DNA from: Alteromonas sp.
Lineage (GTDB): Bacteria > Margulisbacteria > Marinamargulisbacteria > UBA6595
NCBI GenBank assembly: GCA_964220215.1
Contig: CAXPTH010000022.1
Coordinates: 194 to 64,193, forward strand
Reading direction: 5' to 3'
DNA: 64,000 bases
Positions 1,025-58,729 of the stretch are shown here, piece after piece (the first letter of the stretch is position 1; every line of letters begins with the position of its first letter). The notes beneath the pieces are model-generated. The model did no database searches and had not been told where the DNA came from. It saw nothing but the letters and a program-made list of their open reading frames with translations. The translations under genes were made by a program, and so were the position numbers.

Positions 1025-2278
1025 TTATTCTTGTTCTGTGTACAGATTGTAAAATAAATGATGTATTTCTACCTCTTTTGTATCTCCTTCAACAGAATGA
1101 CGAGAGACAAAGTGAGTTTCATTTACTTTTCTATAGCCTCCATTATACGATTCATTATCTTCTAAGATTTTCTTTATTTGCTCTAATATTTCAGAGAAAT
1201 TTTTATTCCTAGAAAAAGTTATCATTACACCAAAATTATGCCTCCAAGTTAGGTATCCTCTAAGTTGATTAATAGTGGAATGATACAAATTTGCTCCTTT
1301 CCAAATTTTACACTCAAATACAAGAATATTTCCTTTATCAATGTTTAGATAAATATCAGTTTTACCATTGTTTGAAAAAGTCTCTCCTGTAGCTTTTCCT
1401 TCAAAAATTGAATTTAGGTTTACTAATAAAACATCTCTTAATGCCTCTTCTCCCATGCTTTCATAAGATTTTGGAGTCTTTTCAAATTGCTTACCTTGGT
1501 TATCTAAAAAAGAAATAATATCTAATACTTTTGCTTGATCTAAACTATACTCTTCTGGTTGTGTTGGTGTTGGTTTTACTTTTCTTATAATAGGTTTTTG
1601 AGATAATTCAATTTTTCTAGCTGTTGGATCTTCCTTCTTTTTTAGAGATATATTTATCTTCTTTGTTAATGATGACAATTTTTCCTTATCTTGATTTAAT
1701 TTATTTGCTCTATCTGAAATAAAACTAAATATATTACTTTTTAGTTTAGAGTTTTCATTTTCTATATCTTTATTTTTCCATAAAATTAGTTTTTTTACTC
1801 TATTTATTTGAGAGTCTAGATTTTGTGGAATTTGGTCTTCATTTAGAGAAAATCCGTAGCCTTTAGTTTCCAAAGAAAAAGTTATCTTGTTTGGAGTAAA
1901 AGAAAAATCTTTTTCTGAATAGCCAATTGAAAAAGTAGAAGATTGTAACTCTGCGATATCTCTTATTCTTTCATTTTGAATAATAGGAATTTCAACATCT
2001 ATTTTTTCACATTCAAAATCTAAATCTCCTTGAGATTGATACAACCATTCTCTTCCATGTGTATGAATAGTCTCTATGTACTTTTTCAGATCCCATGTAA
2101 TTTCTTGAGTTTTATCAAATAAGATTGGTTGTAAGCAATATTTATCAAGATAGTATTGAGTTAACTCTTCTATGTTTGTTCCGATTATAGTTGCGTCACT
2201 TTCTCTTAAAATTTCACTCATCACCTTTTCAAAAGACGTTCTGTAATAATCTGATATTGACGCTCTGTTTGTAAACAT
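1025..2278 (-). CDS. Uncharacterised protein with a C-terminal PD-(D/E)xK nuclease-like motif
   Basis: 417-aa ORF. The C-terminal segment EEALRDVLL...GKTDIYLNIDKGNILVFECKIWKG...INQLRGYL fits the E...D...E-x-K restriction-endonuclease-fold pattern. The N-terminal region of about 280 aa has a Lys/Asn-rich coiled-coil-like linker and no motif I recognise. Confidence 0.6.
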   Translation of the reverse strand: MFTNRASISDYYRTSFEKVMSEILRESDATIIGTNIEELTQYYLDKYCLQPILFDKTQEITWDLKKYIETIHTHGREWLYQSQGDLDFECEKIDVEIPIIQNERIRDIAELQSSTFSIGYSEKDFSFTPNKITFSLETKGYGFSLNEDQIPQNLDSQINRVKKLILWKNKDIENENSKLKSNIFSFISDRANKLNQDKEKLSSLTKKINISLKKKEDPTARKIELSQKPIIRKVKPTPTQPEEYSLDQAKVLDIISFLDNQGKQFEKTPKSYESMGEEALRDVLLVNLNSIFEGKATGETFSNNGKTDIYLNIDKGNILVFECKIWKGANLYHSTINQLRGYLTWRHNFGVMITFSRNKNFSEILEQIKKILEDNESYNGGYRKVNETHFVSRHSVEGDTKEVEIHHLFYNLYTEQE

Positions 2279-2305
2279 ATTTAGTGATAATTTTAAAAAC
2301 TAATT

Positions 2306-3190
2306 TCACTCAAAAAAGTCTTCATCAATTTCTTTGACCTCATAAACATTGCTTACTTGAACTCCAACTCCATATTGGTGCATTAAATCAACAAGTTTGT
2401 TTCCATCAATAAGAATTATTTTATGATGTGCTTCACGTGCTTTCTTGATTGCTGAATCGTCAAAAGTAGAGGTAGTTACAAAAATGCCCTTTGTAGTATC
2501 TCCGCTCATTGCTCCAATAAAATTGCGGATTTCTTTTTCACGGACTTTGTTTTCGTTATAACGTTTTGCTTGAATATAGATTTTTTCAAGTCCTAGTTTG
2601 TCTTCATTGATAATTCCATCAATTCCACCATCTCCCGATTTTGCAGTTTCTACAAAATCTCCATACCCCATTTTTTTAAGAAGAATCAAAATAACTTTTT
2701 CAAAATAGTATGGATCAATATCTTTCAATCTTTCTAGCAGGTCTGTTTTTACTTGAGCTTCAATGGTTGCAAAACCAGAATCAATTAAGTCTTGAGGAGA
2801 GGCATTATCAACTGATATTTTCTCAATTTCATTTTCTTTTTTGCTTTTTTGGGCTTCACGATGAGATATAAAGTCAGAATCGCTTTGGAGATCATCTAAA
2901 GTTAATTTTCCAGTTTTTAAAGCTTGTTTTCCTTTCTCTGTGATTTTTACCATTCCACGTTTTGGATAATCAACAAATTTGCCCATTTTTAAATAAGATT
3001 TACCCCAACCAATACGATCAAGTAAGACATTCGCCCCAGTACTTGTTTTTTGATCAAGTAAATCTTGTGGTAAATCCAAATAGTATTTATCACGAACACG
3101 AAGACCTAAATCTCTATGATGTAGAGATTCTTCAGTAATTAGTACTTCTAGTACTGGTATAAATGTTTCGTGATATTTAGGTAATTCCAT
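2306..3190 (-). CDS. mrr: Mrr-family type IV restriction endonuclease (Mrr_N winged helix plus Mrr catalytic domain)
   Basis: 294 aa. N-terminus is MELPKYHETFIPVLEVL...DRIGWGKSYLKMGKFV (Mrr_N-like). Catalytic region is SGDGGIDGIINEDKLGLEKIYIQAKRY (D...D...QxK core of Mrr_cat). Confidence 0.85.
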   Translation of the reverse strand: MELPKYHETFIPVLEVLITEESLHHRDLGLRVRDKYYLDLPQDLLDQKTSTGANVLLDRIGWGKSYLKMGKFVDYPKRGMVKITEKGKQALKTGKLTLDDLQSDSDFISHREAQKSKKENEIEKISVDNASPQDLIDSGFATIEAQVKTDLLERLKDIDPYYFEKVILILLKKMGYGDFVETAKSGDGGIDGIINEDKLGLEKIYIQAKRYNENKVREKEIRNFIGAMSGDTTKGIFVTTSTFDDSAIKKAREAHHKIILIDGNKLVDLMHQYGVGVQVSNVYEVKEIDEDFFE

Positions 3191-3274: not shown

Positions 3275-3412
3275 TTATTTCCCCTCATTAAAATTAAGAA
3301 AATTTTTCACTCGTTCCTTATTTTTTAAAAAGAGACTTGGAAATATGTCGCCTAACTGTGTTATATCCGCTTCTGTTGCCTTAAATGACACGTTCCCAAC
3401 ATAAATACTCAT
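3275..3412 (-). pseudogene. RRM RNA-binding protein, N-terminal (RNP2) fragment; 45-codon ORF
   Basis: AAGGAG lies 8 nt upstream of the ATG at 3412. Translation MSIYVGNVSFKATEADITQ (RNP2 IYVGNV) then reads through the right TIR (LGDIFPSLFLKNKERVKNF...) to a stop at 3275..3277. It is below the ORF-track length cutoff. Confidence 0.7.
3298..3367 (-). repeat. Right terminal inverted repeat
   Basis: The reverse complement reads gatataacacagttaggcga-ca-tatttccaagtctcttt-(15 nt)-cgagtgaaaaattttc. This is the same three modules in the same order as 858..966. Confidence 0.8.
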
Positions 3413-3574: not shown

Positions 3575-5650
3575 ATGAAACGTAAAGCATACGCGTGGGT
3601 ATTGGCCAGTATTTTCCCGCTAATCGCCGGGTTGCTTGTGGTGTTTTTGGGGGCATCCTTGGTATCCGTGGCTCATACTGGTCCTGTGGGGAGTGGGGCG
3701 GTGTATATGGGGCGATGGCTCATGGGCAAAGCGGTGTGGAGTGTGCCTATTTTGGGGATTATTGCCGTATGGCAGCGGTACGCAGCCAGGGTGTCGGCGC
3801 TGCGATGCAGTTTAGGCTGGGGTGTTTTGAGTTGGGGCGTGGCGCTGGGCCTGACCGGCTTGTGGGTGGACCCTTCGGCCATGTTGACGCAAACAACGTG
3901 CTGGAACACGGGGGGGTTGCTGGGGTTTATGACCTATCGGGTTCTTGTGGTCAGCGTGGGGCTATGGGGCGTGTGGCTCATGAGTGCCATATGTGGGATT
4001 GGGGGGCTCATGCTGTGGGGTGTTTCGATCTCGATGCCGGGATGGGGGCGTATCAAACAGGGCATTGTGTCGATGCGTGTTTGGGCATGGCTGTCCCGCC
4101 GACGGTCATCTGCGCAAGCGGTGGATGCGCCCCCAAAGCCCAAGCGGTCCAAACGGTTGCCCCCATCATCCGGCGTCCAGCATACGGGAAATTACCCCCC
4201 TATTGCTTTGCTGGATAAGCCCGATGCCCCCCGCACCACCACCGATCCCGATACCACGCGGGGGGATGCGGTTTTGGCTGTGCTGCACAGCTTTGGGGTT
4301 CAAGCTTCAGTGGCCAATGTGACCGTGGGGCCCAGTGTCACGCGGTACGAGCTCAGCTTGGGTCAAGGGGTTAAGCTCAGCAAAGTGATGGGACTGGCCA
4401 ACGATATTGCGCTTAAATTGGCGAGCCCAAATGTGCGGATTGAGGCCATTGCCGGCCAATCGTTGGTGGGTATTGAGGTCCCCAATCCCGATATTCAGTC
4501 GGTTCGATTGCGGCCCTTGATTGAATCCGTTCAATCGGATCCGGATAAATTATTAGCAGCCATGGGGCTGAGCATTACCGGCGAGCCGATTATTATGCAT
4601 TTGGGGCGCATGCCGCATGTGTTGATTGCCGGTGCCACTGGGTCGGGGAAAAGCGTGTGTGTGAACACCATTATTTTATCCATTTTAATGCGTGCGAGCC
4701 CGGATGACGTTCGGTTTGTGATGATTGATCCGAAAAAAGTAGAACTCAATTTATATGACGGGATCCCGCATTTGTTGGCTCCCGTGGTGACGGATTCGGC
4801 GCAGGCGGCCGCTACGCTGCAAAAATGGGTATTAAAAGAGATGGAGCGTCGGTACACGATTTTTTCACGCTTGGGGGTTAAGCAATTGGAGGGGTACAAC
4901 AAAAAAGTCACAGCCTTGCGTGACGACTATAAAAAGAATCCCAATAAAGTCAAAGCGGTGTTGCACGAAAAGTTGGGCTATGACCCAGAGGTTGAGGATC
5001 CGGTTTTGCCCGATGTGTTGCCCTACATTGTGGTAATTATTGATGAGCTAGCGGATTTGATGATGGTGGCGGCTCAAGATGTGGAGACCACCATTTGTCG
5101 CTTGGCGCAAATGGCACGGGCGACGGGCATTCACTTGGTGATCGCAACGCAACGCCCCAGCGTGAACGTGATTACGGGCTTAATTAAGGCCAATATTCCG
5201 TCACGGATTTCATTTTTCCTGCAATCACAAATTGATTCCCGAACGATTTTGGATTCGGGCGGGGCTGAAAAATTAATGGGTAAAGGGGATATGCTCTATA
5301 TGCCCGTTGGGACATTTAAACCGCAACGATCGCAAGGGGTTTTTGTTTCAGAAGCTGAAGTGGAGCGCGTGGTGTCGTTTTGGAAAAAACAAGCCAAACC
5401 CAGGTATCACGAAGATATTTTAAATGTGAAAGTGGATACCGTGAACGACTCGGTGTCAGAGGCCGAAGACCCGTTGTTTTTGGAGGCTAAAACCTTGGTT
5501 CAATCGCAGAAAAAAGTCTCGGTATCGTTGTTGCAGCGAAAACTTAAAATTGGTTATAATCGGGCGTCACGACTGATGGATGAATTGGAGGAAAAGGGGA
5601 TTGTTAGCGCATATGATGAAGCGCAAAAATCCCGGTTAGTGATTCGGTGA
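3575..5650 (+). CDS. ftsK: DNA translocase FtsK
   Basis: N-terminal TM helices; Walker A IAGATGSGKSVCVN; Walker B VVIIDELADLM; C-terminal gamma winged helix SVSLLQRKLKIGYNRASRLMDELEEKGIV. Confidence 0.95.
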   Translation: MKRKAYAWVLASIFPLIAGLLVVFLGASLVSVAHTGPVGSGAVYMGRWLMGKAVWSVPILGIIAVWQRYAARVSALRCSLGWGVLSWGVALGLTGLWVDPSAMLTQTTCWNTGGLLGFMTYRVLVVSVGLWGVWLMSAICGIGGLMLWGVSISMPGWGRIKQGIVSMRVWAWLSRRRSSAQAVDAPPKPKRSKRLPPSSGVQHTGNYPPIALLDKPDAPRTTTDPDTTRGDAVLAVLHSFGVQASVANVTVGPSVTRYELSLGQGVKLSKVMGLANDIALKLASPNVRIEAIAGQSLVGIEVPNPDIQSVRLRPLIESVQSDPDKLLAAMGLSITGEPIIMHLGRMPHVLIAGATGSGKSVCVNTIILSILMRASPDDVRFVMIDPKKVELNLYDGIPHLLAPVVTDSAQAAATLQKWVLKEMERRYTIFSRLGVKQLEGYNKKVTALRDDYKKNPNKVKAVLHEKLGYDPEVEDPVLPDVLPYIVVIIDELADLMMVAAQDVETTICRLAQMARATGIHLVIATQRPSVNVITGLIKANIPSRISFFLQSQIDSRTILDSGGAEKLMGKGDMLYMPVGTFKPQRSQGVFVSEAEVERVVSFWKKQAKPRYHEDILNVKVDTVNDSVSEAEDPLFLEAKTLVQSQKKVSVSLLQRKLKIGYNRASRLMDELEEKGIVSAYDEAQKSRLVIR

Positions 5651-37156: not shown

Positions 37157-37611
37157 GCGTTAAATGTTGCTCGAAATTTTCGCAACGATTCTTTAACCGA
37201 ATCATCATGAATCGCAATCATTTCCATAGCCAAAATAGCGGCGTTTTTGGCTCCGTTAACCGCCACCGTTGCAACAGGAATGCCCGGGGGCATTTGAACA
37301 ATAGACATCAAAGCATCCAAGCCATCAAAGCTGGAACGAATGGGAACCCCAATAACGGGTGTGGTTGTGGTGTAGGCAGCCACCACCCCGGGCAAATGCG
37401 CCGCCATGCCCGCTGCCGCAATAATAACGCTGCTGTTTTCTTCAAAATCAGCCACCAACGCTTTAACTTTGTCTGGGTTTCGATGTGCCGATGCCACATA
37501 CACATCATTGGCAATGCCGTATTCGGTTAAAAATTCACTGGCTTTTTCCATAATGGGCAAGTCAGATTTGGATCCCATAATAATACCAACATGGGGTTTT
37601 TTATGTGTCAT
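37153..37611 (-). CDS. purE: N5-carboxyaminoimidazole ribonucleotide mutase
   Basis: GIIMGSKSD, AAGMAAHLPGVVAA, VIGVP. Confidence 0.93.
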   Translation of the reverse strand: MTHKKPHVGIIMGSKSDLPIMEKASEFLTEYGIANDVYVASAHRNPDKVKALVADFEENSSVIIAAAGMAAHLPGVVAAYTTTTPVIGVPIRSSFDGLDALMSIVQMPPGIPVATVAVNGAKNAAILAMEMIAIHDDSVKESLRKFRATFNA

Positions 37612-37760
37612 GTGTTACTCCTTTATCGTGTTTGATACCGTTATTGGGCCGCTGAACCGTTAATTGAGCGTCCGTAGTTTATAGTATAGCAATAACCCAG
37701 GACGCTCGCCACTCGCCAATTGACTCGATTTGTTGCACATAGGCTGATATACTAAATCCA

Positions 37761-38927
37761 ATGACAACAATACATCAAGCCGGGTTTTTTGGGGATTATG
37801 GGGGGCAGTACATTCCAGAGACGTTGGTGCCGGTTTTATCTGAATTAACGCAGGCCATGGATGCCATTCTCGAAACCCCGGCGTTTCAGCGTGAGTTGGC
37901 CGACTATTACACCCATTACATTGGCCGTCCGTCCCCCCTGTATTTGGCCAAACGCCTCACCGAATGGTGTGGCGGCGCTCAAATTTTTTTCAAACGGGAT
38001 GAGTTAAACCACACCGGCGCGCACAAAATTAACAACTGTGTGGGGCAATTGTTATTGGCCAAACACATGCAAAAAACCCGCATTATTGCGGAAACCGGTG
38101 CCGGCCAACACGGCGTTGCCACCGCCACCGTGTGTGCGTTGTTCGGCTTGCCCTGTGTGGTCTATATGGGGGCTAAAGACATTGAGCGCCAACAGCCCAA
38201 TGTCAGCCGCATGCGCTTATTGGGCGCCGAGATTGTTCCGGTTACGGCCGGTCAAGGCACCCTCAAAGATGCCATGAACGAAGCCATTCGTGACTGGGTC
38301 GCCAATGTAGATACCACCTATTACGCCATTGGCACAGCCGCTGGCCCTCACCCGTACCCCACATTGGTGCGGCATTTTCAGTCCATCATTGGGCAAGAAG
38401 TCAAAACCGCCTTTCAGGCTCAATTCAATGCATTGCCCGATACCCTGGTGGCCTGCTTGGGTGGTGGGTCCAATGCCATTGGCTTGTTTGCGCCATTTTT
38501 GGCGGATACGCAGGTCAACTTGGTGGGTGTTGAGCCCGATGGCGCAGCCCCACTGGCCTATGGAACCCCCGGGGTCTTGCACGGCAATAAAACGTATTTA
38601 TTGCAAGATGAACACGGCCAAATCGCCGACACACAGTCCATTTCAGCGGGTTTAGATTATCCCGGTATTGGGCCTGAACACAGTTATTTGAAAGACACCG
38701 GCCGCGTGACCTACACCACCGTGACCGACGCCGAGGCCCTGGATGCTTTCCAACGCTGTGCCCAGTACGAAGGCATTATTCCCGCACTGGAGCCGGCCCA
38801 TGCCCTAGCCCATGTTTTAGCATTAGCCCCAACCCTACCCCCATCGCACCGCTTGGTGATGAACTTGTGTGGGCGCGGGGACAAGGACCTTGCTGCGGTT
38901 GCCGCCCATTTGGGATGGGCATCATGA
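37761..38927 (+). CDS. trpB: Tryptophan synthase beta chain
   Basis: HTGAHKINN (PLP Lys), [20 protein letters not shown]. Confidence 0.95.
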
Positions 38928-40544: not shown

Positions 40545-40892
40545 ATGGCACGAACAAAACGCGGCAATGTCGCACGAAAACGACGAAAAAAAATATTAGC
40601 CCAGACGAAAGGGTTTCGAGGTGGGCTGTCTAAGCTGATTCGACCAGCAAAACAAGCCTTATTGCATGCGTTAAGCAACCAATATCGGGACCGTCGAAAA
40701 CGAAAAACTCAATTTCGACAACTGTGGATTGGCCGCATTAAAGCGGGCTTGCGTCAGCATAATGTGTCCTATTCTGTGTTTATCGGACAGTTGGGCAAAC
40801 ACAACATCGGGGTTAATCGAAAAATGTTAGCGGAATTGGCGGTCAATGACCCTACCGTATTTGATGCGGTGGTGGCCGAAGCCCAAGCATGA
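40545..40892 (+). CDS. rplT: 50S ribosomal protein L20
   Basis: [18 protein letters not shown]...GFRG... Confidence 0.95.
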
Positions 40893-41377
40893 TTGAGTTG
40901 CAAGTGGGTGGCTTGGGGTTTGACCCCAAAAGTATGTCACCCATTGTTCTCTTGCGGGATCAAGAAGAACGCAATTTTTTGCCTATTTGGATTGGCATGT
41001 TTGAGGCAGCCGCAATTGCCATGGAGTTGCAGAGTTTTAAAACACCCCGACCCATGACCCACGACTTGTTGGCCAATACGATTAAGACGTTGGGCGCTGA
41101 AGCTGAAAAAGTGGTGATTACCCATATCGTGGAGAACACATTTTATTCTGAAATTAGCCTGATTAAAGATGGCAAGGTTCTCGTGTTGGATTCTCGGCCC
41201 AGTGATTCAATTGCGATTGCCGTTCGGCTGGATATCCCCATTTATGTATCCGAGTCGGTGATGAGTACCGCTAAGATGGTGAATGTTGAAAAAGACGAAA
41301 AAGAAGCCCAAAAATTCAAAGACTTTATCGATAATATTAATCCAGACGACTTTAAAAAGCACCTCGGAAACGATTAA
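40889..41377 (+). CDS. Bifunctional nuclease family (DUF151) protein
   Basis: [31 protein letters not shown]...RPMTHDLL...VVI; 162 aa; coupled to rplT by a 4-nt overlap. Confidence 0.7.
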
Positions 41378-41440: not shown

Positions 41441-44400
41441 ATGGGGAATATTACTTTGTATGAAGTACTATCAGGAGGTGCGGTGACTCAGTTTATTGAC
41501 AACGCTATTGTAGAGCGATCGGATGATTGGGCCTACCAGTCGGTGGATCAGATTATTCAGCAATCGCTATCGGTGATTCAAGATCCCGATGAGGGGGCAT
41601 CCGTTCAGGGGGTGTCGTCTGTGGATACGGCTCGGGTATCGAGCGAGTCGCCGTCTCCGGATGACCCGGTGGCAGACACACGGGTGTGGCGCAGCTTTAT
41701 TTTGGATACCATTCAACGGACGGTCACCGAGTTGGGGCAGGCGTATGGGGTTGACACGGCATCGGTGGACCATATTCAACGCGTATTGGCAGACACGCGC
41801 AGCTTGGACCAGGTTCAGATCTTGGCGGAGTGGTCGCCGGACATGTCGGATCGGGTTGAAGCGACGATTGTTCGGGCAACCCAGCGAGCGCTGCTGGACC
41901 ATCGCTTGGCGGCGTTGGGTATTGTGCCGTATACGGCGCCACCATCGGCGTCGGCGGTCTTGTATCCGAGCGGGTTGGTTCCGCTTCCAGTATCGGCGGT
42001 GTCGGTGCCCATGGAATCGGTGGATACGGCGGTGCTTCAACTGGCTCGGGAAGCGGCGCAATCGGTATCGGGCCCCTTGGCGTTGGCGGATTGGATTGCC
42101 CTCGCCCAATCAATATCGAGTGGTTTGTCTGTGGTGGATGCTCCGGAGTATTGCCAATCAATTGCGGTGATGCTGGGTGTGACTGCGGCTGGCGAGTCGG
42201 TGCAGGGCATTGTATTTCCGGATGCGGATGGGGTGCAGCGGATGATCACATCCGTTAATTTGGTGGATTTGGATGCCCCGATTGAATCGGTGCATGCGTC
42301 GGAGATTCGGCCTGCGATACTTCGCTATTCGGATACGGCGATGGTGGTGGACGGGCCCATTCCGGGGCTGGGTGTTCGGATGCTGGATCGGGCCCCGATT
42401 GTGCCTGAAGCCATTGCGGTGGATGCGGGTCGGTTGGGTCAGGTGATTGCCACGGAGCAAACCCAAGGGCGAAACCCCATGACCTTTATTGATCCGGATG
42501 CTGCGGTGGTTGTGGATCTTGTTAACGATTGGCAGGCATCGGGGTATGTCCAGGCCGGGATGACCGAGTCCGAGATTATGACTGCAGTACATCGGTATGT
42601 GGCGGATCGGATTGCGTATCAATCGGATGTGGGGGACCAGTGGCAAACGGTTGAGCAGACGCTGGCTCGGGGTGCGGGTGACTGTGAAGACATGGCTATT
42701 TTGGTGGCATCGCTGGCTGCCCGGGCGTTGCATGCGGTAGGTATGAATGATCTGGCCGAAACGGTCCGGCTCGAAGCGGGGTTGATGGCGGATGGCGCGG
42801 TGGGGCATATGGTCGCCCGTGTGGGCGAGCAGTGGGTGGTGGACGCCACACAGTCGGTGGCGATTCAGGATCGCACGGCAGTCGCCATGGATAGCGTGTA
42901 TGTGCTGGGTATGAACGGCGTTCAACAAACGGGACGGTTGGATCAAGTGGCGCGGCTGAAACGGGTGGGGACAGCGGGGAGAGAAGCCGATTATTTAGAA
43001 TTTAGAAAGACAGATGATTCTAATAATTTAGCCATCTCCGGTGCTCAAACATGGACTATGACCCACTCTTGGTACGGTGGATCTTGGAGTTATAATTCAG
43101 GTTCATTTTCAGATACAACAAAATGGAATGCGATTATAGCCGCATTAAATACCAATACGGGAAGCATAGAACAAAGATTGGAATCTGTTAGATGGACCAC
43201 AACGCAAAGGATACATACAGATTCATACATGTCTTGGGACCGACGCGATGATAAATCTGGTGATTATGAAAATTCTATACGTGACAATGCTAATAATGGC
43301 GATAGTGGTAGTATCTTTCAAGGATCCAATCAGCGTCTTTACGGTCTTCACTCTTATGATGTTTATAGACATGGGGGTGCGCAGCCTTATAGTTTTGGGG
43401 ACACTTCGCGTGATTGGAGAGATCATTACGATATAACACTTGGTCATATGCTAACGACTACTGAAATCAATCATCTGGCAAATATTATTCGAGAACAACC
43501 CTCCCAAGGGGAAATTGACCGACGGTATGCTATTGCTAATTCAATACGTGGTTACCAAGACTTGGCATCTGATTTGTTTGGTTATTTTTATGGTTTTTGG
43601 TTAGGATCCGAAGATGACGTTATTTTTAATTCCGGTGTTAGTGCATTTATTTCAAATTTTGCTGATATTACCAAAGATACTGAACGGTTATTAAACATAG
43701 GATTCATAAGCCCAAACCAAATAGACGCTATAGACGCTATAAACTATATTTTTGGGAAAGATACTAGCAATTCTAATTCTATTGACGATGTCGCTAATTT
43801 TTCTGGTACTACACAAACACTTACTTCTGTTCAAACAACTGATGTTGATAACGCAGTATCAAAATTCGCCGATAATAATGAGAATTTTAAAAAAATTTTA
43901 AAATTCTCACTTTCGAATTCCGGTCCAATTACTCCAGGTAATGTATCTGAACCTGTTACTCAAGAGCAAAAAATTCTAAAGGCTACAAATAATATTAAGA
44001 ACGCCGTTGAGCGTGCAAAAAACATTTATAATAAACTGTATGGCTCAGGCTTATCTATCAACGTAGGCGACCTACAAGACTACCTTGTGGGGGCATGGAT
44101 TGAAGGCGTTGATTACACTTATAATCCGTATGAGATTCTGGACTTACTAACACGAAATAGGGTTGATAATCCAGAAAATTATGCGAAGTTTTCAGCGCAT
44201 TACGTGACAGTCGGTACTTTAAATAGCTCGAGGTTGACCAAATACACTAATATAAGAGAGGACTTAAATAAGAGCTATGATACTAATAATAAAAATGACT
44301 TAGATTCATTAGCTAGAGCGGTTCAAAATGCAGATGATAGTTATGTTGCCATCCTGAACGAGTATTTCAATTTAACCCTCGCAAACGTTTTGGTAGCAGT

Positions 44401-47400
44401 CAATGACCAAATGTCGGATACCGAAAAATTATCCACAATGCTACACAACATCCAAAAATTACGTCAACAACAAGGACTCTCATTGGAACAAGCCCGAAAT
44501 TTGTGGTTCCTTATTTATAGTAATGAGCTTGGAGTACAAAACTACTACGGAAGCTACATCGCCACCCACATTGACCGAGACCCCATTAAATTCTTTTTTG
44601 AAAAGCTAACTAGAAATGACAATGGCACGTTTGATTTTTCAAGAGCACAAACAGAAACTCAGATTGCTCAAGCGCTTTACGAAACAAACACCCCCCCCCC
44701 TCTTTTTAGTTTTAGCGGTTATTTTAATGCCAATAGCGATTGGGAGGACACTATAAGTGGTATCAATTCTACTGACATCAGTGTTCGACTTACAGCCAGC
44801 CGTAATCTATATAATTTATTAAAGCAAAAAGATAATGATGATGCCCTATCAATCAAAATATTAACGTATATTTTGTTGAAAACAGATGGCAATACAGCTC
44901 AGTTTTTGCCTTCGTTGGAGGCTGATTACAAACAAGCTGCTTTTTATGTTGTTGATGCGGTTCTTGAGAATGATTCAAATGTTGAGATAGATACGATTCT
45001 CGGTCACGTTAAAAGTAGCATTAATGACTATGTCTTCCCAGACCTACAAGACGGCAAAAATTTCGCAGATTTTATGGGTGAATATAAAACAGCAAAACGA
45101 GCATCCTTTCCAGTTGAATTGACTAATCTGTCTTGGCATAATGATGTTGATTTTCCCAATTCACTGGGAAATCTAGCCACTTCATTTACATTTCAAGACT
45201 ACGTTGGAGCCGCAGGTTTTGATGGAGGGGACAATAATTGGCGTTATGGAGAAGGTCCTAGTGGTATTACTATTTCAATTAATAACCCTCAACGAATACA
45301 AACTAATCAGCAGGCCTGGGACAGGTTTAAAACGCATGTAAGTAATTATGATCCTTCTGTTGATCTATCTGCTCACTTAAGGGGCTTTAGGTGGTCTGGT
45401 GGATTAGAATTAGTAGGGACACATAATGATGGAACCGGTGGTTCGGCGAGTGACCTTGATAGCGCATTTAATGATCAATTGTCTGGAAGTAATAATGGTA
45501 TAGTTGGTGCTGAGCATAGAATCGCACGGATACCCGAACTCGACCCATTTGGTGTCGGATTTGATACCTACATTTCTAGAACTATTCAGTACTGTTTAAC
45601 AGAGGCTGAGATAGATTATTTTAAAAATCTTATTCAAATATATGATGGTAATATTTTTGAATCTGGAGTTGAATCATCGGACATTAGCAACTATTTAAAC
45701 AGTGTTGTTTCAGGTAGCAGTGTTGTTTCAGGTACAGGTATCCCCAAAGCTCAATTCGCCTCTTCCGGAACGGCCTTTTTGAGCGATGATGTTATTGATA
45801 GTTTGGATTTTTATGATCGGAATAGAGCAACACAAATTGACAGCAGCTTAATTGAAAGGTTTACCAACCTACCACTGCAATTGTTTACATATAATAATGG
45901 TAATGACTTATACACGTTAACAGATGAAGGCAAAATATTTGGTGCAGCACTAAACGCTGCAGAGGGGGCTAATCCTAGCTTTGATTTTAAAATCATCAAT
46001 AAAACTGCTAGTGAATGGCGTCAGGTAGATCTCGAACATGATTTACATGATTTAGACAGAATCTTTTTTAACAAGCATTTTTTTATTATTAATGACAAAA
46101 TTATTCAAAAAAAAGAGATAACCGCTAATAGTTTGATAGGTGTTAGTCCCGCAGTAAAAAGTTTTTTTACAGAACAGCTAACCACAGAAAATGTTTTTGG
46201 AACAGATCAAAAAGCCCATTTTATAGCCGCGTATAACGCCACTAAAGGGGATCTATTAATTAAACAAAATGTGACTGATGAACAAATTCAAATTTTTAAA
46301 AATCACCTTAAAACCAGAAGTTTAGTCCCTAGCAAAGTGATAAGCATACTCCAGCCGACAGCCGCTCAACTACAAGCTAGCTTGGACACGTCGTGGGATC
46401 AATTGAATGCTCAAAGATTGATTACTGTTCAAGCAAACGGAGCATTTTCTAATGCTATTTTGATCGCAGATCTTAGCAGTCAACTGGATAATATCGATCA
46501 AGGCCAAATCACGGCAAGCAGTTTTTCAATGATTGGAGACGGGAGTCTGGGGGGTGAAATTATTAGTTTTTTGAAAGGACAAAATTATGTATCAGACGAA
46601 GGCTATGTCGAAGATAAGTTTGATTCTGATATTCCAATTAATTATGATGGACTAACTGCTAGCTTATCAGATGACCAGAAATCGGTAATTCATCGCATAT
46701 TCATTTTGGCGAAAACAAAAAAAGCGTATTGGGATAGTGTTAATGAATTAAATGTTCGGTATGGTACAGCACGTAGAAGCCATGGTGAAGCAATTTCTGC
46801 CATAAGAGATGAAGATTCTGACATGTTAGGTAGATACACCACAGCAATAACTGACATCAAGAATTGCCAAACTGAAATAAATAGGCTTCAACGTGAAATC
46901 TATGATGATATGCTTGAAGTCGTTAATTCATTGACGAGAGAACCTTCCCTTTACCTCGGGGATATCGACAGTAACATTGATACTTGGTCATCACAAGACA
47001 TTAGTGAATTGCGGAGGTATTATCTAGGTTATATTAATAGCGATGTAAATGGTTTGGAATTAGGATTCAGTACAGAAAAACTGAAGGTAGATATGTTGGG
47101 TATCATTAGTGATGCTGGGCTAGTGGCAGCCAGTCAAGAGCCTGGGCAATTGAGTCTGGATGAGGGCACGTATATATACGACTATCGTATAAGCAGTGGT
47201 CCACCAAAATTTGAATCTAAAAATTTTAGACAGATTGTTGAGAAATTAGGTGAGATGGAGATTTTGGGCAATAACGAGTCGATTCCTAATAATTTTGAAT
47301 ACACAGAGCAAGATATAAGTACTATAGCCAATATAGAAGGTATAGCTAGTATAGACAATTTGGATGGCAATTTGGATGACTATGATTTTAAGTATATAAA

Positions 47401-55222: not shown

Positions 55223-57045
55223 CTCAAGTACGTAATTAAAATGCTGAGGTCTGCCGGATTGATCCCCCCAATGCGTTTGGCGGCTTGGATTGTTGGGGGG
55301 CGATGGTCCATCAGCCGTTGACGGCATTCAGCACGCAGTCCGGGAATTTTCGTATAGTCTAGGGTGCTGGGCAGGGGTTTTTGTTCCCATTTTTGAATGC
55401 GGTCAATCTCCAGCTGCTGGCGGCGCAGATACCCGGCATATTTAATGGCCACATGGGCGCGTTTGCATTGGTCGTACTGGTCGTAGGTGTCTGGCTGGTG
55501 CTTCAGCGCCCCAAAGACAACGTCGATATCAAACTCGGGTCGTTTGCAGGCTTCATGCAGCGACAGGGTTGCGTCTAGACTCAGGCGGGCGGCAGCCGCG
55601 TCGGGTAGACGTTCTTTTTTCCAACGGTCTTGCAGGTTTTGAACGCATGCGTCCCAGTTTTGAACGGTTAGATGATCGCTTTCGGGCACTACACCCGCAT
55701 CATGCCCCAGGGTGCTGAGCCGGAAATGGGCGTTGTCCTGGCGCAATAGCAAGCGATACTCGGAACGTGAGGTGAGCATACGGTACGGTTCATGAATGGT
55801 TTTGGTAATTAAGTCATCAATTAGCGTGCCAATAAATGACTGGTCACGCGTGAGAATTAAGGGTTGTTTTCCCTGCACATAAAGCCCGGCATTAATACCG
55901 GCAATGATGCCTTGGCCGGCCGCCTCTTCGTATCCGGATGTGCCATTGAGCTGACCGGCAAAAAACAAATTGGGCATGGTTTGACTGGCTAAGGTGGGCG
56001 TAAGCTGGGTGGGAATCACGTAATCGTATTCCACGGCATAGCCATAACGCAGCACGGATACATTGGCAAGCCCTGGCATGGTTTTTAGAAACTCAAGCTG
56101 AATATCAGCGGGCATGGAGGTGTTCAGCCCCTGGGCATATATTTCCGGGGTGTCCCAGCTTTCGGGCTCCAGAAAAATATGATGGCTGGGTTTGTCGCTA
56201 AATCGTACAACTTTGTCTTCGATTGACGGGCAGTATCGGGGGCCTACGCCTTGGATGCTGTGGTTGTACATGGGTGAGCGGTCCAAATTGTCGAGCAACA
56301 GTGCATGGCCGTCGGGTGTGGTGTTGGATAAAAAACAATCGGCTTGCTGGGTATACCGAGTATTAAAGGGCGTCCGCAATGAAAATCGATGAAATTCTGG
56401 GTCTCCGGGTTGGGGGGCTAGGGCACTGGTGGTAATAGAGTCGCGGTGGAGCCGGGGCGGGGTGCCGGTTTTGAAGCGACCCAGACGCAACCCCAAGCGT
56501 CGAAAGGTGTCAGAGAGTCCTAGGGCGGCAGCTTCGCCGACGCGACCACCGTCTGTTTTAGCCTCGCCGGTATGCATGCAGGCAGACAAAAAGGTGCCCG
56601 TTGTGACCACAATGGCTGCGCCGCGGATGCGGGTGCCGTCCGCTAAAATAGCGGTGGTTTCATGCGTGTTGTGCTCAATGTCAACCACCATTCCGGTGAT
56701 GATTTCAATGCCTGGGGTTGCGTCAAGTGTGGTTTGCATATGGCGTTGATAGGCATATTTATCATTTTGGGATCGCACGCATTGCACGGCCGCACCTCGG
56801 GATCGATTCAGCAGTTTCATTTGCATAAATGTAGCATCGGCCGCGCGGCCCATTTCTCCACCCAAGGCATCCACTTCGCTCACAATTTGACTTTTGGCGG
56901 GCCCCCCGATGGCCGGGTTGCAGGGCATAACACCAATGGTATCGACACTTCCGGTAATCATCACGGTAGGCACGCCCATACGGGCACAGGCTAATGCGGC
57001 CTCGCATCCGGCGTGGCCACCCCCAATAACAAGGACACGGTTCAT
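55219..57045 (-). CDS. mnmG: tRNA uridine 5-carboxymethylaminomethyl modification enzyme MnmG (GidA)
   Basis: VIGGGHAGCEAA FAD motif; 608 aa; collinear with GidA throughout. Confidence 0.95.
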   Translation of the reverse strand: MNRVLVIGGGHAGCEAALACARMGVPTVMITGSVDTIGVMPCNPAIGGPAKSQIVSEVDALGGEMGRAADATFMQMKLLNRSRGAAVQCVRSQNDKYAYQRHMQTTLDATPGIEIITGMVVDIEHNTHETTAILADGTRIRGAAIVVTTGTFLSACMHTGEAKTDGGRVGEAAALGLSDTFRRLGLRLGRFKTGTPPRLHRDSITTSALAPQPGDPEFHRFSLRTPFNTRYTQQADCFLSNTTPDGHALLLDNLDRSPMYNHSIQGVGPRYCPSIEDKVVRFSDKPSHHIFLEPESWDTPEIYAQGLNTSMPADIQLEFLKTMPGLANVSVLRYGYAVEYDYVIPTQLTPTLASQTMPNLFFAGQLNGTSGYEEAAGQGIIAGINAGLYVQGKQPLILTRDQSFIGTLIDDLITKTIHEPYRMLTSRSEYRLLLRQDNAHFRLSTLGHDAGVVPESDHLTVQNWDACVQNLQDRWKKERLPDAAAARLSLDATLSLHEACKRPEFDIDVVFGALKHQPDTYDQYDQCKRAHVAIKYAGYLRRQQLEIDRIQKWEQKPLPSTLDYTKIPGLRAECRQRLMDHRPPTIQAAKRIGGINPADLSILITYLS

Positions 57046-58333: not shown

Positions 58334-58420
58334 GCCGTGGTGGTGGAATTGGTAGACACGCTAGCTTGAGGGGCTAGTGCTCATTTGGGCGTGCAGGTTC
58401 AAGTCCTGTCCTCGGCACCA
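58334..58420 (+). tRNA. tRNA-Leu (anticodon GAG), type II, CCA encoded
   Basis: GCCGTGG acceptor; GGAATTGGTAGAC D-loop; anticodon stem-loop CTAGC-TTGAGGG-GCTAG; long variable arm; GGTTCAAGTCC T-loop; ends GGCACCA. Confidence 0.9.
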
Positions 58421-58639: not shown

Positions 58640-58729
58640 TGGTACCGAGGGCCGGACTTGAACCGGCACGAGCGTTGAAGGCTCAATGGATTTTAAGTCC
58701 ATCGTGTCTACCAATTCCACCACCCCGGC
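58640..58729 (-). tRNA. tRNA-Leu (anticodon UAA), type II, CCA encoded
   Basis: Reverse complement GCCGGGGTGGTGGAATTGGTAGACACG-ATGGA-CTTAAAA-TCCAT-...GGTTCAAGTCCGGCCCTCGGTACCA. Confidence 0.9.

What the first reader, a model, noticed from the sequence alone, without database searches (positions are those of the whole stretch)
42950..43050. Abrupt compositional junction inside the giant ORF: chimeric gene
Upstream of about 42990 the ORF is about 60% GC. It has host-like codons (TTG, GGG, GCG, CGG) and the many shadow ORFs typical of GC-rich coding DNA. Within about 20 nt (...acagcggggagagaagcc | gattatttagaatttagaaagacagatgattctaataattta...) it switches. Spot counts then give 22% and 45% (roughly 35-40%), with AAT/AAA/TTA/GAT codons, for the next 12.1 kb. 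It switches back at about 55150. The reading frame is preserved across both junctions. The simplest reading is an in-frame fusion or insertion of a horizontally acquired low-GC module into a resident gene, comprising the transglutaminase head plus the proline tail.
Basis: partly seen in the sequence, partly recalled or inferred. Interest (0 to 1): 0.8.

Follow-up and report, generated by a model that had tools for sequence, protein, structure and literature searches.

The report
Conserved-head, hypervariable-body giant gene
The sharp GC drop inside this 4,593-codon gene is real, but it marks where a conserved enzyme-like head meets a fast-evolving, strain-variable body that related bacteria swap by recombination; it is not a recent insertion of foreign DNA into a small resident gene.

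Summary
The ORF 41441..55222 (+) drops from GC 0.60 / GC3 0.65 to GC 0.39 / GC3 0.34 at nt 42980-42990. This is the second-largest compositional step in the window, and the frame is kept.

Two other assemblies are 99.99% identical across the junction, so it is not an assembly artefact.

All ten relatives that cover the junction read in frame from the same head, ending in L(K/R)RVGT, into a low-GC body. Their backbone identity ranges from 81% to 99.99%, and none has a head-plus-tail gene.

The proline "tail" is about 20 codons. It varies between relatives, and its GC comes from the amino acids it encodes.

The junction is a boundary in evolutionary behaviour:
- **Head:** conserved, dN/dS 0.15-0.3.
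- **Body:** at least four discrete allele types among strains with 98-99% identical flanks, dN/dS 0.5-1.0 and a mosaic structure.
- **Head approaching the junction:** a mainly synonymous SNP peak, as described for replacement flexible genomic islands.

The body has no relatives outside this uncultured marine clade related to candidate phylum UBP8. Why the composition step is so large remains partly unexplained.

The parts
41441..55222 (+). Giant ORF of 4,593 codons, between the bifunctional-nuclease gene and the convergent mnmG
   Evidence: The longest stop-free runs in the other five frames of the body are 44-161 codons.
41441..41584 (+). First 48 codons: GC 0.44, highly conserved N-terminus (TQFIDNAIVERSDDWAYQSVDQIIQQSLSVIQDPDE). 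No signal peptide is evident by eye; none was predicted with a tool.
41585..42973 (+). GC-rich head (GC 0.60, GC3 0.65). It has 1 Lys in 516 residues and evolves at dN/dS 0.15-0.3.
42545..42850 (+). Transglutaminase-like cysteine-peptidase core. The putative triad is C415 (42683-42685), H456 (42806-42808) and D468 (42842-42844).
   Evidence: Pfam PF01841 scores 25.6 bits against a cutoff of 23, over aa 369-426. There is weak similarity to LapG. The triad residues are invariant in alignment A2. His and Asp were assigned by inspection.
42069..42973 (+). SNP-peak zone in the head. Mismatches per 300 nt rise 9, 8-9, 18 towards the junction, against 0-2 further upstream, and are mostly synonymous. 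This is the inferred crossover flank.
42953..42973 (+). Last conserved motif, RLKRVGT (QLKRVGT in L005), found in all alleles. Nucleotide homology to other allele types ends at 42969-42976.
42974..43510 (+). Allele-specific first body segment (type A, AGREADYLEFRK...). It cannot be aligned at nucleotide level with types B-D. It is a divergent copy of the domain at aa 1245-1399.
42974..55159 (+). Low-GC hypervariable body of about 4,060 codons. It is predicted to be mostly helical, from a low-confidence model of its last 794 residues, and has no database family. dN/dS is 0.5-1.0.
45173..45637 (+). Second copy of the post-junction domain (aa 1245-1399). It resembles the first-position domain of alleles L001, L002 and L005 (33-42% aa; 79-81% nt in patches).
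51338..53332 (+). Region with hydrophobic, TM-like segments at aa 3300-3318, 3668-3701 (a hairpin) and 3946-3964
   Evidence: Kyte-Doolittle scan
55160..55222 (+). Pro-rich tail, QPGPPLPPPAEPLPPGPPAN followed by the stop. It co-varies with the mnmG flank.
55219..57045 (-). mnmG (gidA), the conserved 3' flank. It converges on the giant ORF and overlaps its stop by 4 nt.
40889..41377 (+). Bifunctional-nuclease-domain gene, the conserved 5' flank. An identical protein occurs on at least 23 contigs.

Best explanation
**What it is.** The junction is a domain boundary inside a long-standing giant gene of an uncultured marine bacterial clade related to candidate phylum UBP8. Upstream lies a conserved N-terminal head with a transglutaminase-like Cys-His-Asp peptidase core. 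Downstream lies a roughly 4,060-residue hypervariable body.

**How it behaves.** The body acts like a replacement-type flexible genomic island that begins inside an ORF. Many deeply diverged alleles coexist in populations whose flanking genes are 98-99% identical. Alleles and allele segments move by homologous recombination. Crossovers resolve in the conserved head on the 5' side and around the tail and mnmG on the 3' side.

**Why the composition differs.** The body is under weak purifying or diversifying selection. It has lost the G/C-ending preference that resident genes and the head show in four- and six-fold codon families, and it sits at the GC of the genome's own non-coding DNA. The GC step therefore marks where constraint and allele turnover change. 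It is not the scar of a recent insertion.

**Shown:**
- the compositional step;
- the shared architecture in all relatives;
- discrete allele types;
- mosaicism;
- the SNP gradient in the head;
- the contrast in dN/dS.

**Inferred:**
- balancing or frequency-dependent selection, for example from phages, grazers or cell-cell interactions, maintains the alleles;
- the protein is exported or exposed;
- the head is an active peptidase or transglutaminase, possibly processing the protein near RLKRVGT.
For: 1. **Same architecture in every relative.** All ten loci covering the junction read in frame from ...L(K/R)RVGT into low-GC sequence, and head GC3 0.63-0.66 against body GC3 0.28-0.37 was measured in the six with usable body sequence. 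Backbone identity ranges from 80.7% (L005) through 91.5% (L008) and 98-99% (L001, L006, L011, L013, L018) to 99.99% (L012, L015). UBA6595 (L004) has a 26-40% identical low-GC C-terminal part next to an mnmG that is 92% identical in protein.
2. **Discrete alleles on near-identical backbones.** Four major post-junction types occur (AGREADYLEF; SISIPDFLENVKW; AQVQRKTAREYLQWY; ATDRRSPFDYLNWRL), in seven sequence variants. Between the window and L011 the backbone has dS of about 0.02, while the body has dS 0.2-1.2.
3. **Exchange and mosaicism.**
   - Against L007, body dS is 0.116 and mnmG dS is 0.75.
   - L001 and L002 are 83% then 99.5% identical in adjacent body segments.
   - Head dS is 0.3-0.6 against both L008 and L005, although flank dS is about 0.18 and about 1.3 respectively.
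4. **SNP peak at the boundary.** Mismatches per 300 nt run 0, 0, 0, 2, 9, 9, 18 towards 42969, with dN/dS 0.15. This is the signature reported for replacement flexible genomic islands, a class in which giant-protein clusters are listed (PMC4033161).
5. **Constraint.** dN/dS is 0.15-0.34 in the head, 0.5-1.0 in the body (one bin reaches 1.6), and 0.03-0.15 in core genes.
6. **Composition.** Intergenic GC of the window is 0.39, the same as the body. Within the body, GC3 correlates with conservation (Spearman 0.39, p = 0.03).
7. **No sign of insertion or a mobile source.** There are no flanking repeats. No relatives were found in the phage, plasmid or viral-contig collections.
Against: - **The step is too large and too abrupt for constraint alone.** The best-conserved body stretches (62-64% identity to P0004) still have GC3 of about 0.36, against 0.6-0.7 in the head. 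Head and body share one ORF, and presumably one transcript and expression level.
- **The head is itself compositionally odd.** Its GC of 0.60 exceeds all 52 resident ORFs, and it has almost no lysine.
- **Nothing shows that the protein is exposed.** No signal peptide is evident by eye, and the only hydrophobic segments lie after residue 3300.
- **Balancing selection is inferred only from the pattern.**
- **All relatives share one GC background.** An ancient fusion of a low-GC module cannot be ruled out.
Confidence: 0.6

Rival explanations
1. **Ancient chimera with continuing import.** A low-GC module was fused in frame to a transglutaminase-like gene in the ancestor of the clade. It stays AT-rich because body alleles keep being re-imported from an unsampled AT-rich reservoir, such as low-GC relatives or mobile elements.
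For: - The step is sharp in GC3 (0.65 to 0.34) and confined to four- and six-fold codon families, as expected for different source genomes.
- Well-conserved body parts also stay AT-rich.
- Body alleles do move between lineages.
- A stand-alone protein, P0008 on a 41% GC contig, shares a module of about 100 aa with the body.
Against: - No donor was found. There were 8 hits among 1.84 billion representative proteins; the four strongest (P0004-P0007) are fragments of the same family, P0008 is a stand-alone protein sharing one module, and P0009-P0011 are short fragments matching that same stretch whose context was not examined.
- Nothing was found in phages, plasmids, viral contigs or GTDB species representatives.
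- The head has no separate homologue either.
- The low GC persists in lineages whose flanks are saturated at synonymous sites (dS 1.1-1.6). A relic composition should have ameliorated by then.
Confidence: 0.27
2. **The first reader's reading.** A foreign low-GC module was recently inserted in frame into a resident gene made of the transglutaminase head plus the proline tail.
For: - The composition step at 42990 and the return at 55136 are real, and the frame is kept.
- Tail DNA stays similar, within the 90.8%-identical mnmG-flank alignment, in L003, while the body just upstream is only 46% identical in protein.
Against: - All ten relatives that cover the junction already have the body, including one at 81% backbone identity. 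No head-plus-tail gene was seen.
- The tail is 20 codons with GC3 0.43. It is absent in L004, has a different sequence in L007, and lies behind a stop in L003.
- There are no target-site repeats or mobility genes.
Confidence: 0.03
3. **Assembly artefact.** The junction joins reads from two organisms or strains.
For: - Several metagenome contigs stop at or just after the junction (L006/L014 ends 16 nt past it).
- The body fragments badly in assemblies.
Against: - Two independent assemblies are 99.99% identical across it (L012, L015).
- Eight further loci with other alleles continue in frame and in register at the same codon.
- A 4,049-codon stop-free frame in 39% GC DNA cannot arise by chance.
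Confidence: 0.01

Closest known systems
Replacement flexible genomic islands of aquatic prokaryotes (Lopez-Perez et al. 2014, PMC4033161)
   Same: - Fixed chromosomal position between conserved core genes.
- Completely different versions in strains of about 98% ANI.
- The same version on different backbones.
- No hallmarks of illegitimate recombination.
- A peak of mostly synonymous SNPs in the bordering shared sequence.
- Giant-protein clusters are named as one class of such islands.
   Different: - Here the 5' border lies inside an ORF, at a protein-domain boundary.
- The versions are colinear, homologous alleles of one gene rather than different gene sets.
- Exposure on the cell surface is not shown.
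Giant bacterial genes with atypical composition (Reva & Tummler 2008, as cited in PMC2528017; e.g. SwmB)
   Same: A single gene longer than 10 kb whose oligonucleotide and codon usage departs from the bulk genome, in an environmental bacterium.
   Different: - There are no tandem repeats or recognisable adhesin domains.
- Only part of the gene is atypical, with an intragenic step.
- The general claim about giant-gene composition rests on my memory of that paper, plus the brief statement in PMC2528017.
Giant Omnitrophota proteins with N-terminal peptidase domains (West-Roberts et al. 2023, bioRxiv 10.1101/2023.11.21.568195)
   Same: A giant protein that is largely free of recognisable domains, with a cysteine or serine peptidase domain near the N-terminus that might process the protein. 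Transmembrane segments are confined to one part.
   Different: - The peptidase here is transglutaminase-like, not C39 or S8.
- No signal peptide is evident by eye.
- The size (4.6 kaa) is much smaller.
- There is no sequence relationship.
Genes with conserved ends and a hypervariable, recombining middle (flagellin fliC, S-layer slpA) and polymorphic toxins (CdiA-CT, Rhs)
   Same: - A sharp switch from conserved to variable sequence after a conserved motif (here RLKRVGT).
- A variable part of lower GC.
- Alleles exchanged by recombination in the conserved part.
   Different: - The variable part is about 4,000 residues and colinear between alleles, not a 100-300 aa toxin tip.
- There is no downstream immunity gene; mnmG abuts the stop codon.
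- There are no orphan cassettes.
- The comparison is from general knowledge.
LapG / bacterial transglutaminase-like cysteine proteinases
   Same: Weak local similarity around the catalytic Cys (NF045674 E = 4.7e-7; PDB 4u65 E = 0.02). LapG acts on a giant adhesin.
   Different: - The score of 29 bits is far below the equivalog cutoff of 320.
- It is not a stand-alone periplasmic enzyme of about 220 aa.
- There is no TAAG-type site at the junction.

Membership tests
Transglutaminase-like superfamily (Pfam PF01841, Transglut_core) | Profile match above the curated gathering score | tested here: met
   25.6 bits against a cutoff of 23, E = 1.6e-5, aa 369-426 matching profile positions 7-65 of 108. 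The match is marginal and covers only the Cys half.
Transglutaminase-like superfamily (Pfam PF01841, Transglut_core) | Cys-His-Asp catalytic triad | tested here: inconclusive
   GDC415EDMA, GH456MVARV and VVD468AT are invariant in three homologues. His and Asp were assigned by eye, and the structure model was too poor to check geometry (pLDDT 34).
LapG-type cysteine protease (NCBIfam NF045674 equivalog) | Whole-protein score at or above the curated cutoff | tested here: not met
   29.2 bits against a cutoff of 320.
Replacement flexible genomic island | Same chromosomal site in all strains, flanked by conserved core genes | tested here: met
   The order rplT - nuclease gene - giant gene - mnmG holds in all loci with enough flank.
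Replacement flexible genomic island | Highly divergent versions among strains of about 98% identity or more, and similar versions on divergent backbones | tested here: met
Replacement flexible genomic island | Peak of synonymous SNPs in the bordering conserved sequence | tested here: met
   for the 5' side only. The 3' side was sampled in three loci and no gradient was measured there.
Replacement flexible genomic island | Encodes an exposed cell-surface structure | not testable with these tools
   No signal peptide or known surface domain was found, and localisation is unknown.
Polymorphic toxin systems (CdiA/Rhs type) | Short variable C-terminal toxin domain followed by a cognate immunity gene | tested here: not met
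   The variable part is about 4,060 aa and colinear between alleles. The stop codon overlaps the convergent mnmG, and no small downstream ORF is present.
Horizontally acquired insertion (genomic islet) | Flanking direct repeats, a tRNA target or mobility genes; absence from close relatives | tested here: not met
   There are no shared direct repeats of 8 nt or more at the two junctions. The tRNA genes lie 3 kb away. The body is present in all relatives.
Anti-phage defence systems (PADLOC-DB) | Match to any model | tested here: not met
   No hit for the head or the body.

The most novel reading that the evidence does not exclude
The gene may define a new class of giant polymorphic protein, with these features:
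- a conserved transglutaminase-like protease head and the invariant L(K/R)RVGT motif, serving as both the processing site and the recombination anchor;
- a roughly 4,000-residue exchangeable module, possibly membrane-inserting and acting as an effector or a defence component;
- alleles kept as an ancient trans-species polymorphism;
- AT-richness that is itself maintained, for example for silencing or to limit recombination with the core genome, rather than being a by-product of drift.
Probability: 0.12. Interest if true: 0.75.

Novelty: new variant of a known kind. Interest (0 to 1): 0.45.

Why it matters
- **A caution for genome scans.** A textbook-looking horizontal-transfer scar, with an abrupt GC and codon-usage step inside an ORF, can instead be the stable edge of a hypervariable, recombining region that is older than the species carrying it. 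Composition alone would mislead.
- **A natural test case.** The step is unusually clean: a GC3 difference of 0.3 within about 20 nt, conserved across genomes whose synonymous sites are saturated. It could be used to ask what sets local base composition: mutation bias, selection on codons tied to amino-acid constraint, or allele import.
- **A new protein family.** The gene is an uncharacterised giant protein family of an uncultured marine lineage. It has at least four allele classes circulating in near-clonal backgrounds. This flags it as a probable target of strong biotic selection and as a cause of assembly breaks in metagenomes.

Tried and rejected
**Family and structure-database searches of the body.** None gave a credible hit: Pfam, NCBIfam, PHROGs and PADLOC and PDB sequences.

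**Searches for a mobile or outside source.** All were empty:
- megablast and tblastn against phages and plasmids;
- viral contigs;
- GTDB representative genomes with the whole protein.

**Homologue searches**
- A whole-body homologue search timed out.
- A word-based search with the head found only one near-identical fragment.

**Structure prediction.** AlphaFold2 models of the head (pLDDT 34) and of the last 794 residues (pLDDT 35.5) were too poor to use. No fold searches were run on them.

**Other checks of the body**
- A protein self-comparison found no internal repeats at E < 1e-3. The paralogous domain emerged only through other alleles.
- There are no tandem repeats of note and no direct repeats flanking the body.

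**Ideas considered and dropped**
- The long antisense "shadow" ORFs in the head vary in length between relatives and were treated as GC-driven.
- A LapG-style TAAG cleavage site was looked for at the junction and is absent.
- A diversity-generating retroelement or shufflon was judged unlikely: no reverse transcriptase or recombinase appeared among the window ORFs scanned, and variation is not confined to a short template-like tract.
- Literature searches for the phylum name UBP8 returned only the yeast gene.
- My first dN/dS run mis-extracted some L005 orthologues (trpB, infC). It was redone with tblastn anchoring.
Full report
**1. The observation**

The window carries one ORF of 4,593 codons at 41441..55222 on the + strand. 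Sliding GC falls from about 0.60 to 0.36-0.40 near 43000 and returns to about 0.53 near 55100.

- **Change points:** maximum-likelihood change points lie at nt 42980 (GC3) and 42990 (GC). A 5' step is at 41585 and a 3' step at 55136.
- **In-frame values:** the first 48 codons have GC 0.44. The head (41585-42988) has GC 0.60 and GC3 0.65. The body (42989-55135) has GC 0.39 and GC3 0.34. The last 28 codons have GC 0.65 but GC3 only 0.43.
- **Size of the step:** with 1-kb flanks it is the second largest in the window. GC3 in the 100 codons on either side is 0.69 against 0.28 (p = 1e-8).
- **Background:** neighbouring ORFs have GC 0.41-0.57 and GC3 0.41-0.62.
- **Where the difference lies:** in four- and six-fold codon families. 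G/C-ending codons make up 55-76% in resident genes, 67-89% in the head and 31-42% in the body. Two-fold families prefer A/T endings everywhere.

The head is above the genomic background as much as the body is below it. The 3' "switch back" inside the ORF is only about 28 Pro/Ala/Gly-rich codons at the very end of the gene.

**2. Context**

The gene sits in ordinary chromosome. Upstream are ftsK, trkHA, purL, recG, an Nqr subunit and apbE, trpBA, infC, rplT and a bifunctional-nuclease gene. Downstream are a convergent mnmG, a dicarboxylate symporter and ychF. No integrase or transposase appeared among the ORFs scanned, and the nearest tRNA genes are 3 kb away.

The closest named genomes are uncultured. 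"bacterium UBP8_UBA6595" and a Caspian Sea MAG have MnmG 92% identical. MAGs GCA_028096945.1 and GCA_041240485.1 are also close.

**3. The protein**

- **Head:** it carries a marginal but above-threshold Transglut_core match around GDC415EDMA. Downstream are GH456M and VVD468AT, which fit the usual Cys-His-Asp triad and are invariant in relatives. Similarity to LapG is weak and far below the family cutoff. The head has one lysine in 516 residues.
- **Body:** it matches nothing in Pfam, NCBIfam, PHROGs, PADLOC or PDB. It has no tandem repeats. A low-confidence model of its last 794 residues is mostly helical. Hydrophobic segments occur only at aa 3300-3318, 3668-3701 and 3946-3964.
- **Wider search:** an exhaustive HMMER search of 1.84 billion representative proteins with aa 2950-4149 found eight hits. 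The four strongest are fragments of the same family, one is a stand-alone protein sharing a module of about 100 aa, and three are short fragments matching that same stretch whose context was not examined.
- **Structure:** both models were unusable (pLDDT 34 and 35.5).

**4. Relatives across the 5' junction**

Ten other loci cover it: L001, L002, L005, L006 (the same contig as L014), L008, L011, L012, L013, L015 and L018.

- **Shared architecture:** in every one, the ORF runs in frame from a head ending ...L(K/R)RVGT into low-GC sequence. Head GC3 0.63-0.66 against body GC3 0.28-0.37 was measured in the six loci with usable body sequence.
- **Exact confirmation:** L012 and L015 are 99.99% identical to the window across the junction, which excludes an assembly artefact.
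- **Where homology ends:** in the others, nucleotide homology to the window ends at 42969-42976. This holds whether the backbone is 98-99% identical (L001, L006, L011, L013, L018), 91.5% (L008) or 80.7% (L005).
- **Allele types:** beyond the junction the alleles fall into discrete types.

| Type | Post-junction sequence | Loci |
|---|---|---|
| A | AGREADYLEFRK | window, L012, L015 |
| B | SISIPDFLENVKW | L001, L013, L006 |
| B variants | SIGIAAFLENVKW, SIGIVAFLENVKG | L002, L005 |
| C | AQVQRKTAREYLQWY | L011 |
| D | ATDRRSPFDYLNWRL | L018 |
| D variant | SAWRMSAQQYFEWRI | L008 |

- **Still homologous:** the alleles are in register. The whole protein of L008 is colinear with the window's, at 39-42% identity in the body and 72-90% in the head.
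- **A paralogous domain:** the first body domain of types B resembles the window's second copy of that domain (aa 1245-1399) more than the window's first copy.

**5. The 3' end**

- **L004 (UBA6595):** low-GC DNA (0.35-0.41) abuts mnmG. It encodes a C-terminal part 26-40% identical to the window's, ending ...RECVIDEVTV with no proline tail.
- **L003:** it is 90.8% identical through mnmG and the tail DNA up to window 55151, then only 46% identical in protein. It has a stop where the window has Gln-4574.
- **L007:** it has a different Pro-rich tail.

The tail is therefore a short, lineage-variable extension that travels with the mnmG flank. It is not half of an ancestral gene. No 8-mer direct repeat is shared by the two ends of the body.

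**6. Evolutionary dynamics**

- **dN/dS (Nei-Gojobori):** 0.15-0.34 in the head, 0.03-0.15 in most core neighbours, and 0.5-1.0 across the body in unsaturated comparisons. One bin reaches 1.6.
- **Depth of alleles:** between the window and L011 the backbone dS is about 0.02, but the body dS is 0.2-1.2. Point mutation in place cannot produce that, so the alleles are old and are swapped.
- **Direct signs of exchange:**
  - Against L007, body dS is 0.116 beside an mnmG with dS 0.75.
  - L001 and L002 are 83% identical in the first 600 nt of the body and 99.5% in the next 200.
  - Head dS is 0.3-0.6 against both L008 and L005, although their flanks differ sevenfold in dS.
- **Gradient in the head:** approaching the junction, mismatches per 300 nt between the window and five loci rise 0, 0, 0, 2, 9, 9, 18. 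They are mostly synonymous.

This is the boundary SNP peak described for replacement flexible genomic islands of aquatic prokaryotes. That paper lists giant-protein clusters as one class of such islands and attributes their turnover to homologous recombination in the conserved borders (PMC4033161).

**7. Why the composition differs**

A relic foreign composition is unlikely. The same step persists in lineages whose flanking genes are saturated at synonymous sites (dS 1.1-1.6 against L005). The low GC is therefore an equilibrium property of the body.

Two results favour relaxed selection that exposes AT-biased mutation. The body's GC equals that of the window's intergenic DNA (0.39). Within the body, GC3 rises weakly with conservation (rho 0.39, p = 0.03). 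Selection for accurate translation at constrained residues is a known idea (cited from general knowledge). It would predict stronger codon bias in the constrained head.

The explanation is incomplete. The best-conserved body segments still have GC3 of about 0.36, and head and body share one ORF (and presumably one transcript). Continued import from an unsampled AT-rich allele pool remains possible. No such pool appeared in phage, plasmid, viral-contig or GTDB scans.

**8. Verdict**

The compositional junction is real, highly significant and independently assembled.

- the event is not recent;
- there is no resident head-plus-tail gene;
- there is no scar of insertion.

The best description is a clade-wide giant gene with a conserved transglutaminase-like head and a hypervariable, recombining, AT-rich body. 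In effect it is a replacement-type flexible island whose 5' edge lies at a domain boundary inside the ORF. The protein's function is unknown. My working inference is an exported or membrane-inserting protein under frequency-dependent biotic selection, with the head acting as a processing or effector peptidase. That rests only on analogy.

Noticed in passing
window 1025-3190 (- strand): A low-GC islet (GC 0.28-0.33, GC3 0.17-0.18) holds an Mrr-type restriction endonuclease (2306-3190). Beside it is a 417-aa protein matching the PADLOC candidate defence family PDC-S54 (E = 1.3e-78). Its edge near 3590, next to ftsK, is the largest GC step in the window.
   Followed up: partly
window 37611-37761; L011 3094-4003: Strains L011, L014, L016 and L017 carry a Ser/Thr protein-kinase gene (282-299 aa, minus strand) between the purE-like gene and trpB. 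The window, L012 and L015 lack it, so this is a presence/absence polymorphism of about 910 nt.
   Followed up: partly
window 55160-55222; L003 about 3300-3390; L007 about 2060-2125: The Pro-rich C-terminal tail is polymorphic. It is in frame in the window and in L007 (with a different sequence). It lies behind a stop codon in L003, where the window has CAA (Gln). It is absent in UBA6595 (L004). It contains a direct 12-mer repeat, CCAGGCCCGCCA.
   Followed up: partly
window 41585-42988: The head is compositionally extreme in its own right. Its GC of 0.60 exceeds all 52 neighbouring ORFs. It is rich in Ala and Val (27%), acidic, and has a single lysine in 516 residues, located in RLKR. Relatives have 4-6 lysines. 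This is unexplained.
   Followed up: partly
window about 53450-53730 (aa about 4004-4097); L009 499-2682: A module of about 100 aa from the body (GYEDVYENLI...ILQQS) occurs at 56% identity in an otherwise unrelated stand-alone 727-aa protein (P0008), on a 41% GC contig from SRR28326316. This suggests module sharing beyond the giant-gene family.
   Followed up: partly
window 42989-43510 and 45173-45637: The domain just after the junction has a second, divergent copy about 730 residues downstream. Other alleles' first copy is closer to the window's second copy (79-81% nt in patches). This hints at intragenic conversion or domain shuffling.
   Followed up: partly
L006/L014 end; L003 end; L001, L002, L007, L013, L018: Metagenome contigs repeatedly terminate at or just inside the body. 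One ends 16 nt past the junction. This is as expected if co-occurring alleles break the assembly graph there.
   Followed up: no
window 58334-58420 (+) and 58640-58729 (-): Two tRNA-Leu genes (anticodons GAG and TAA) lie in opposite orientation 220 nt apart, in the largest intergenic gap downstream of the symporter gene.
   Followed up: no
window 41567-42946 (- strand): Long antisense stop-free frames (up to 271 codons) overlap the head. Their lengths vary between relatives (227-271), consistent with GC-driven shadow ORFs rather than genes.
   Followed up: partly
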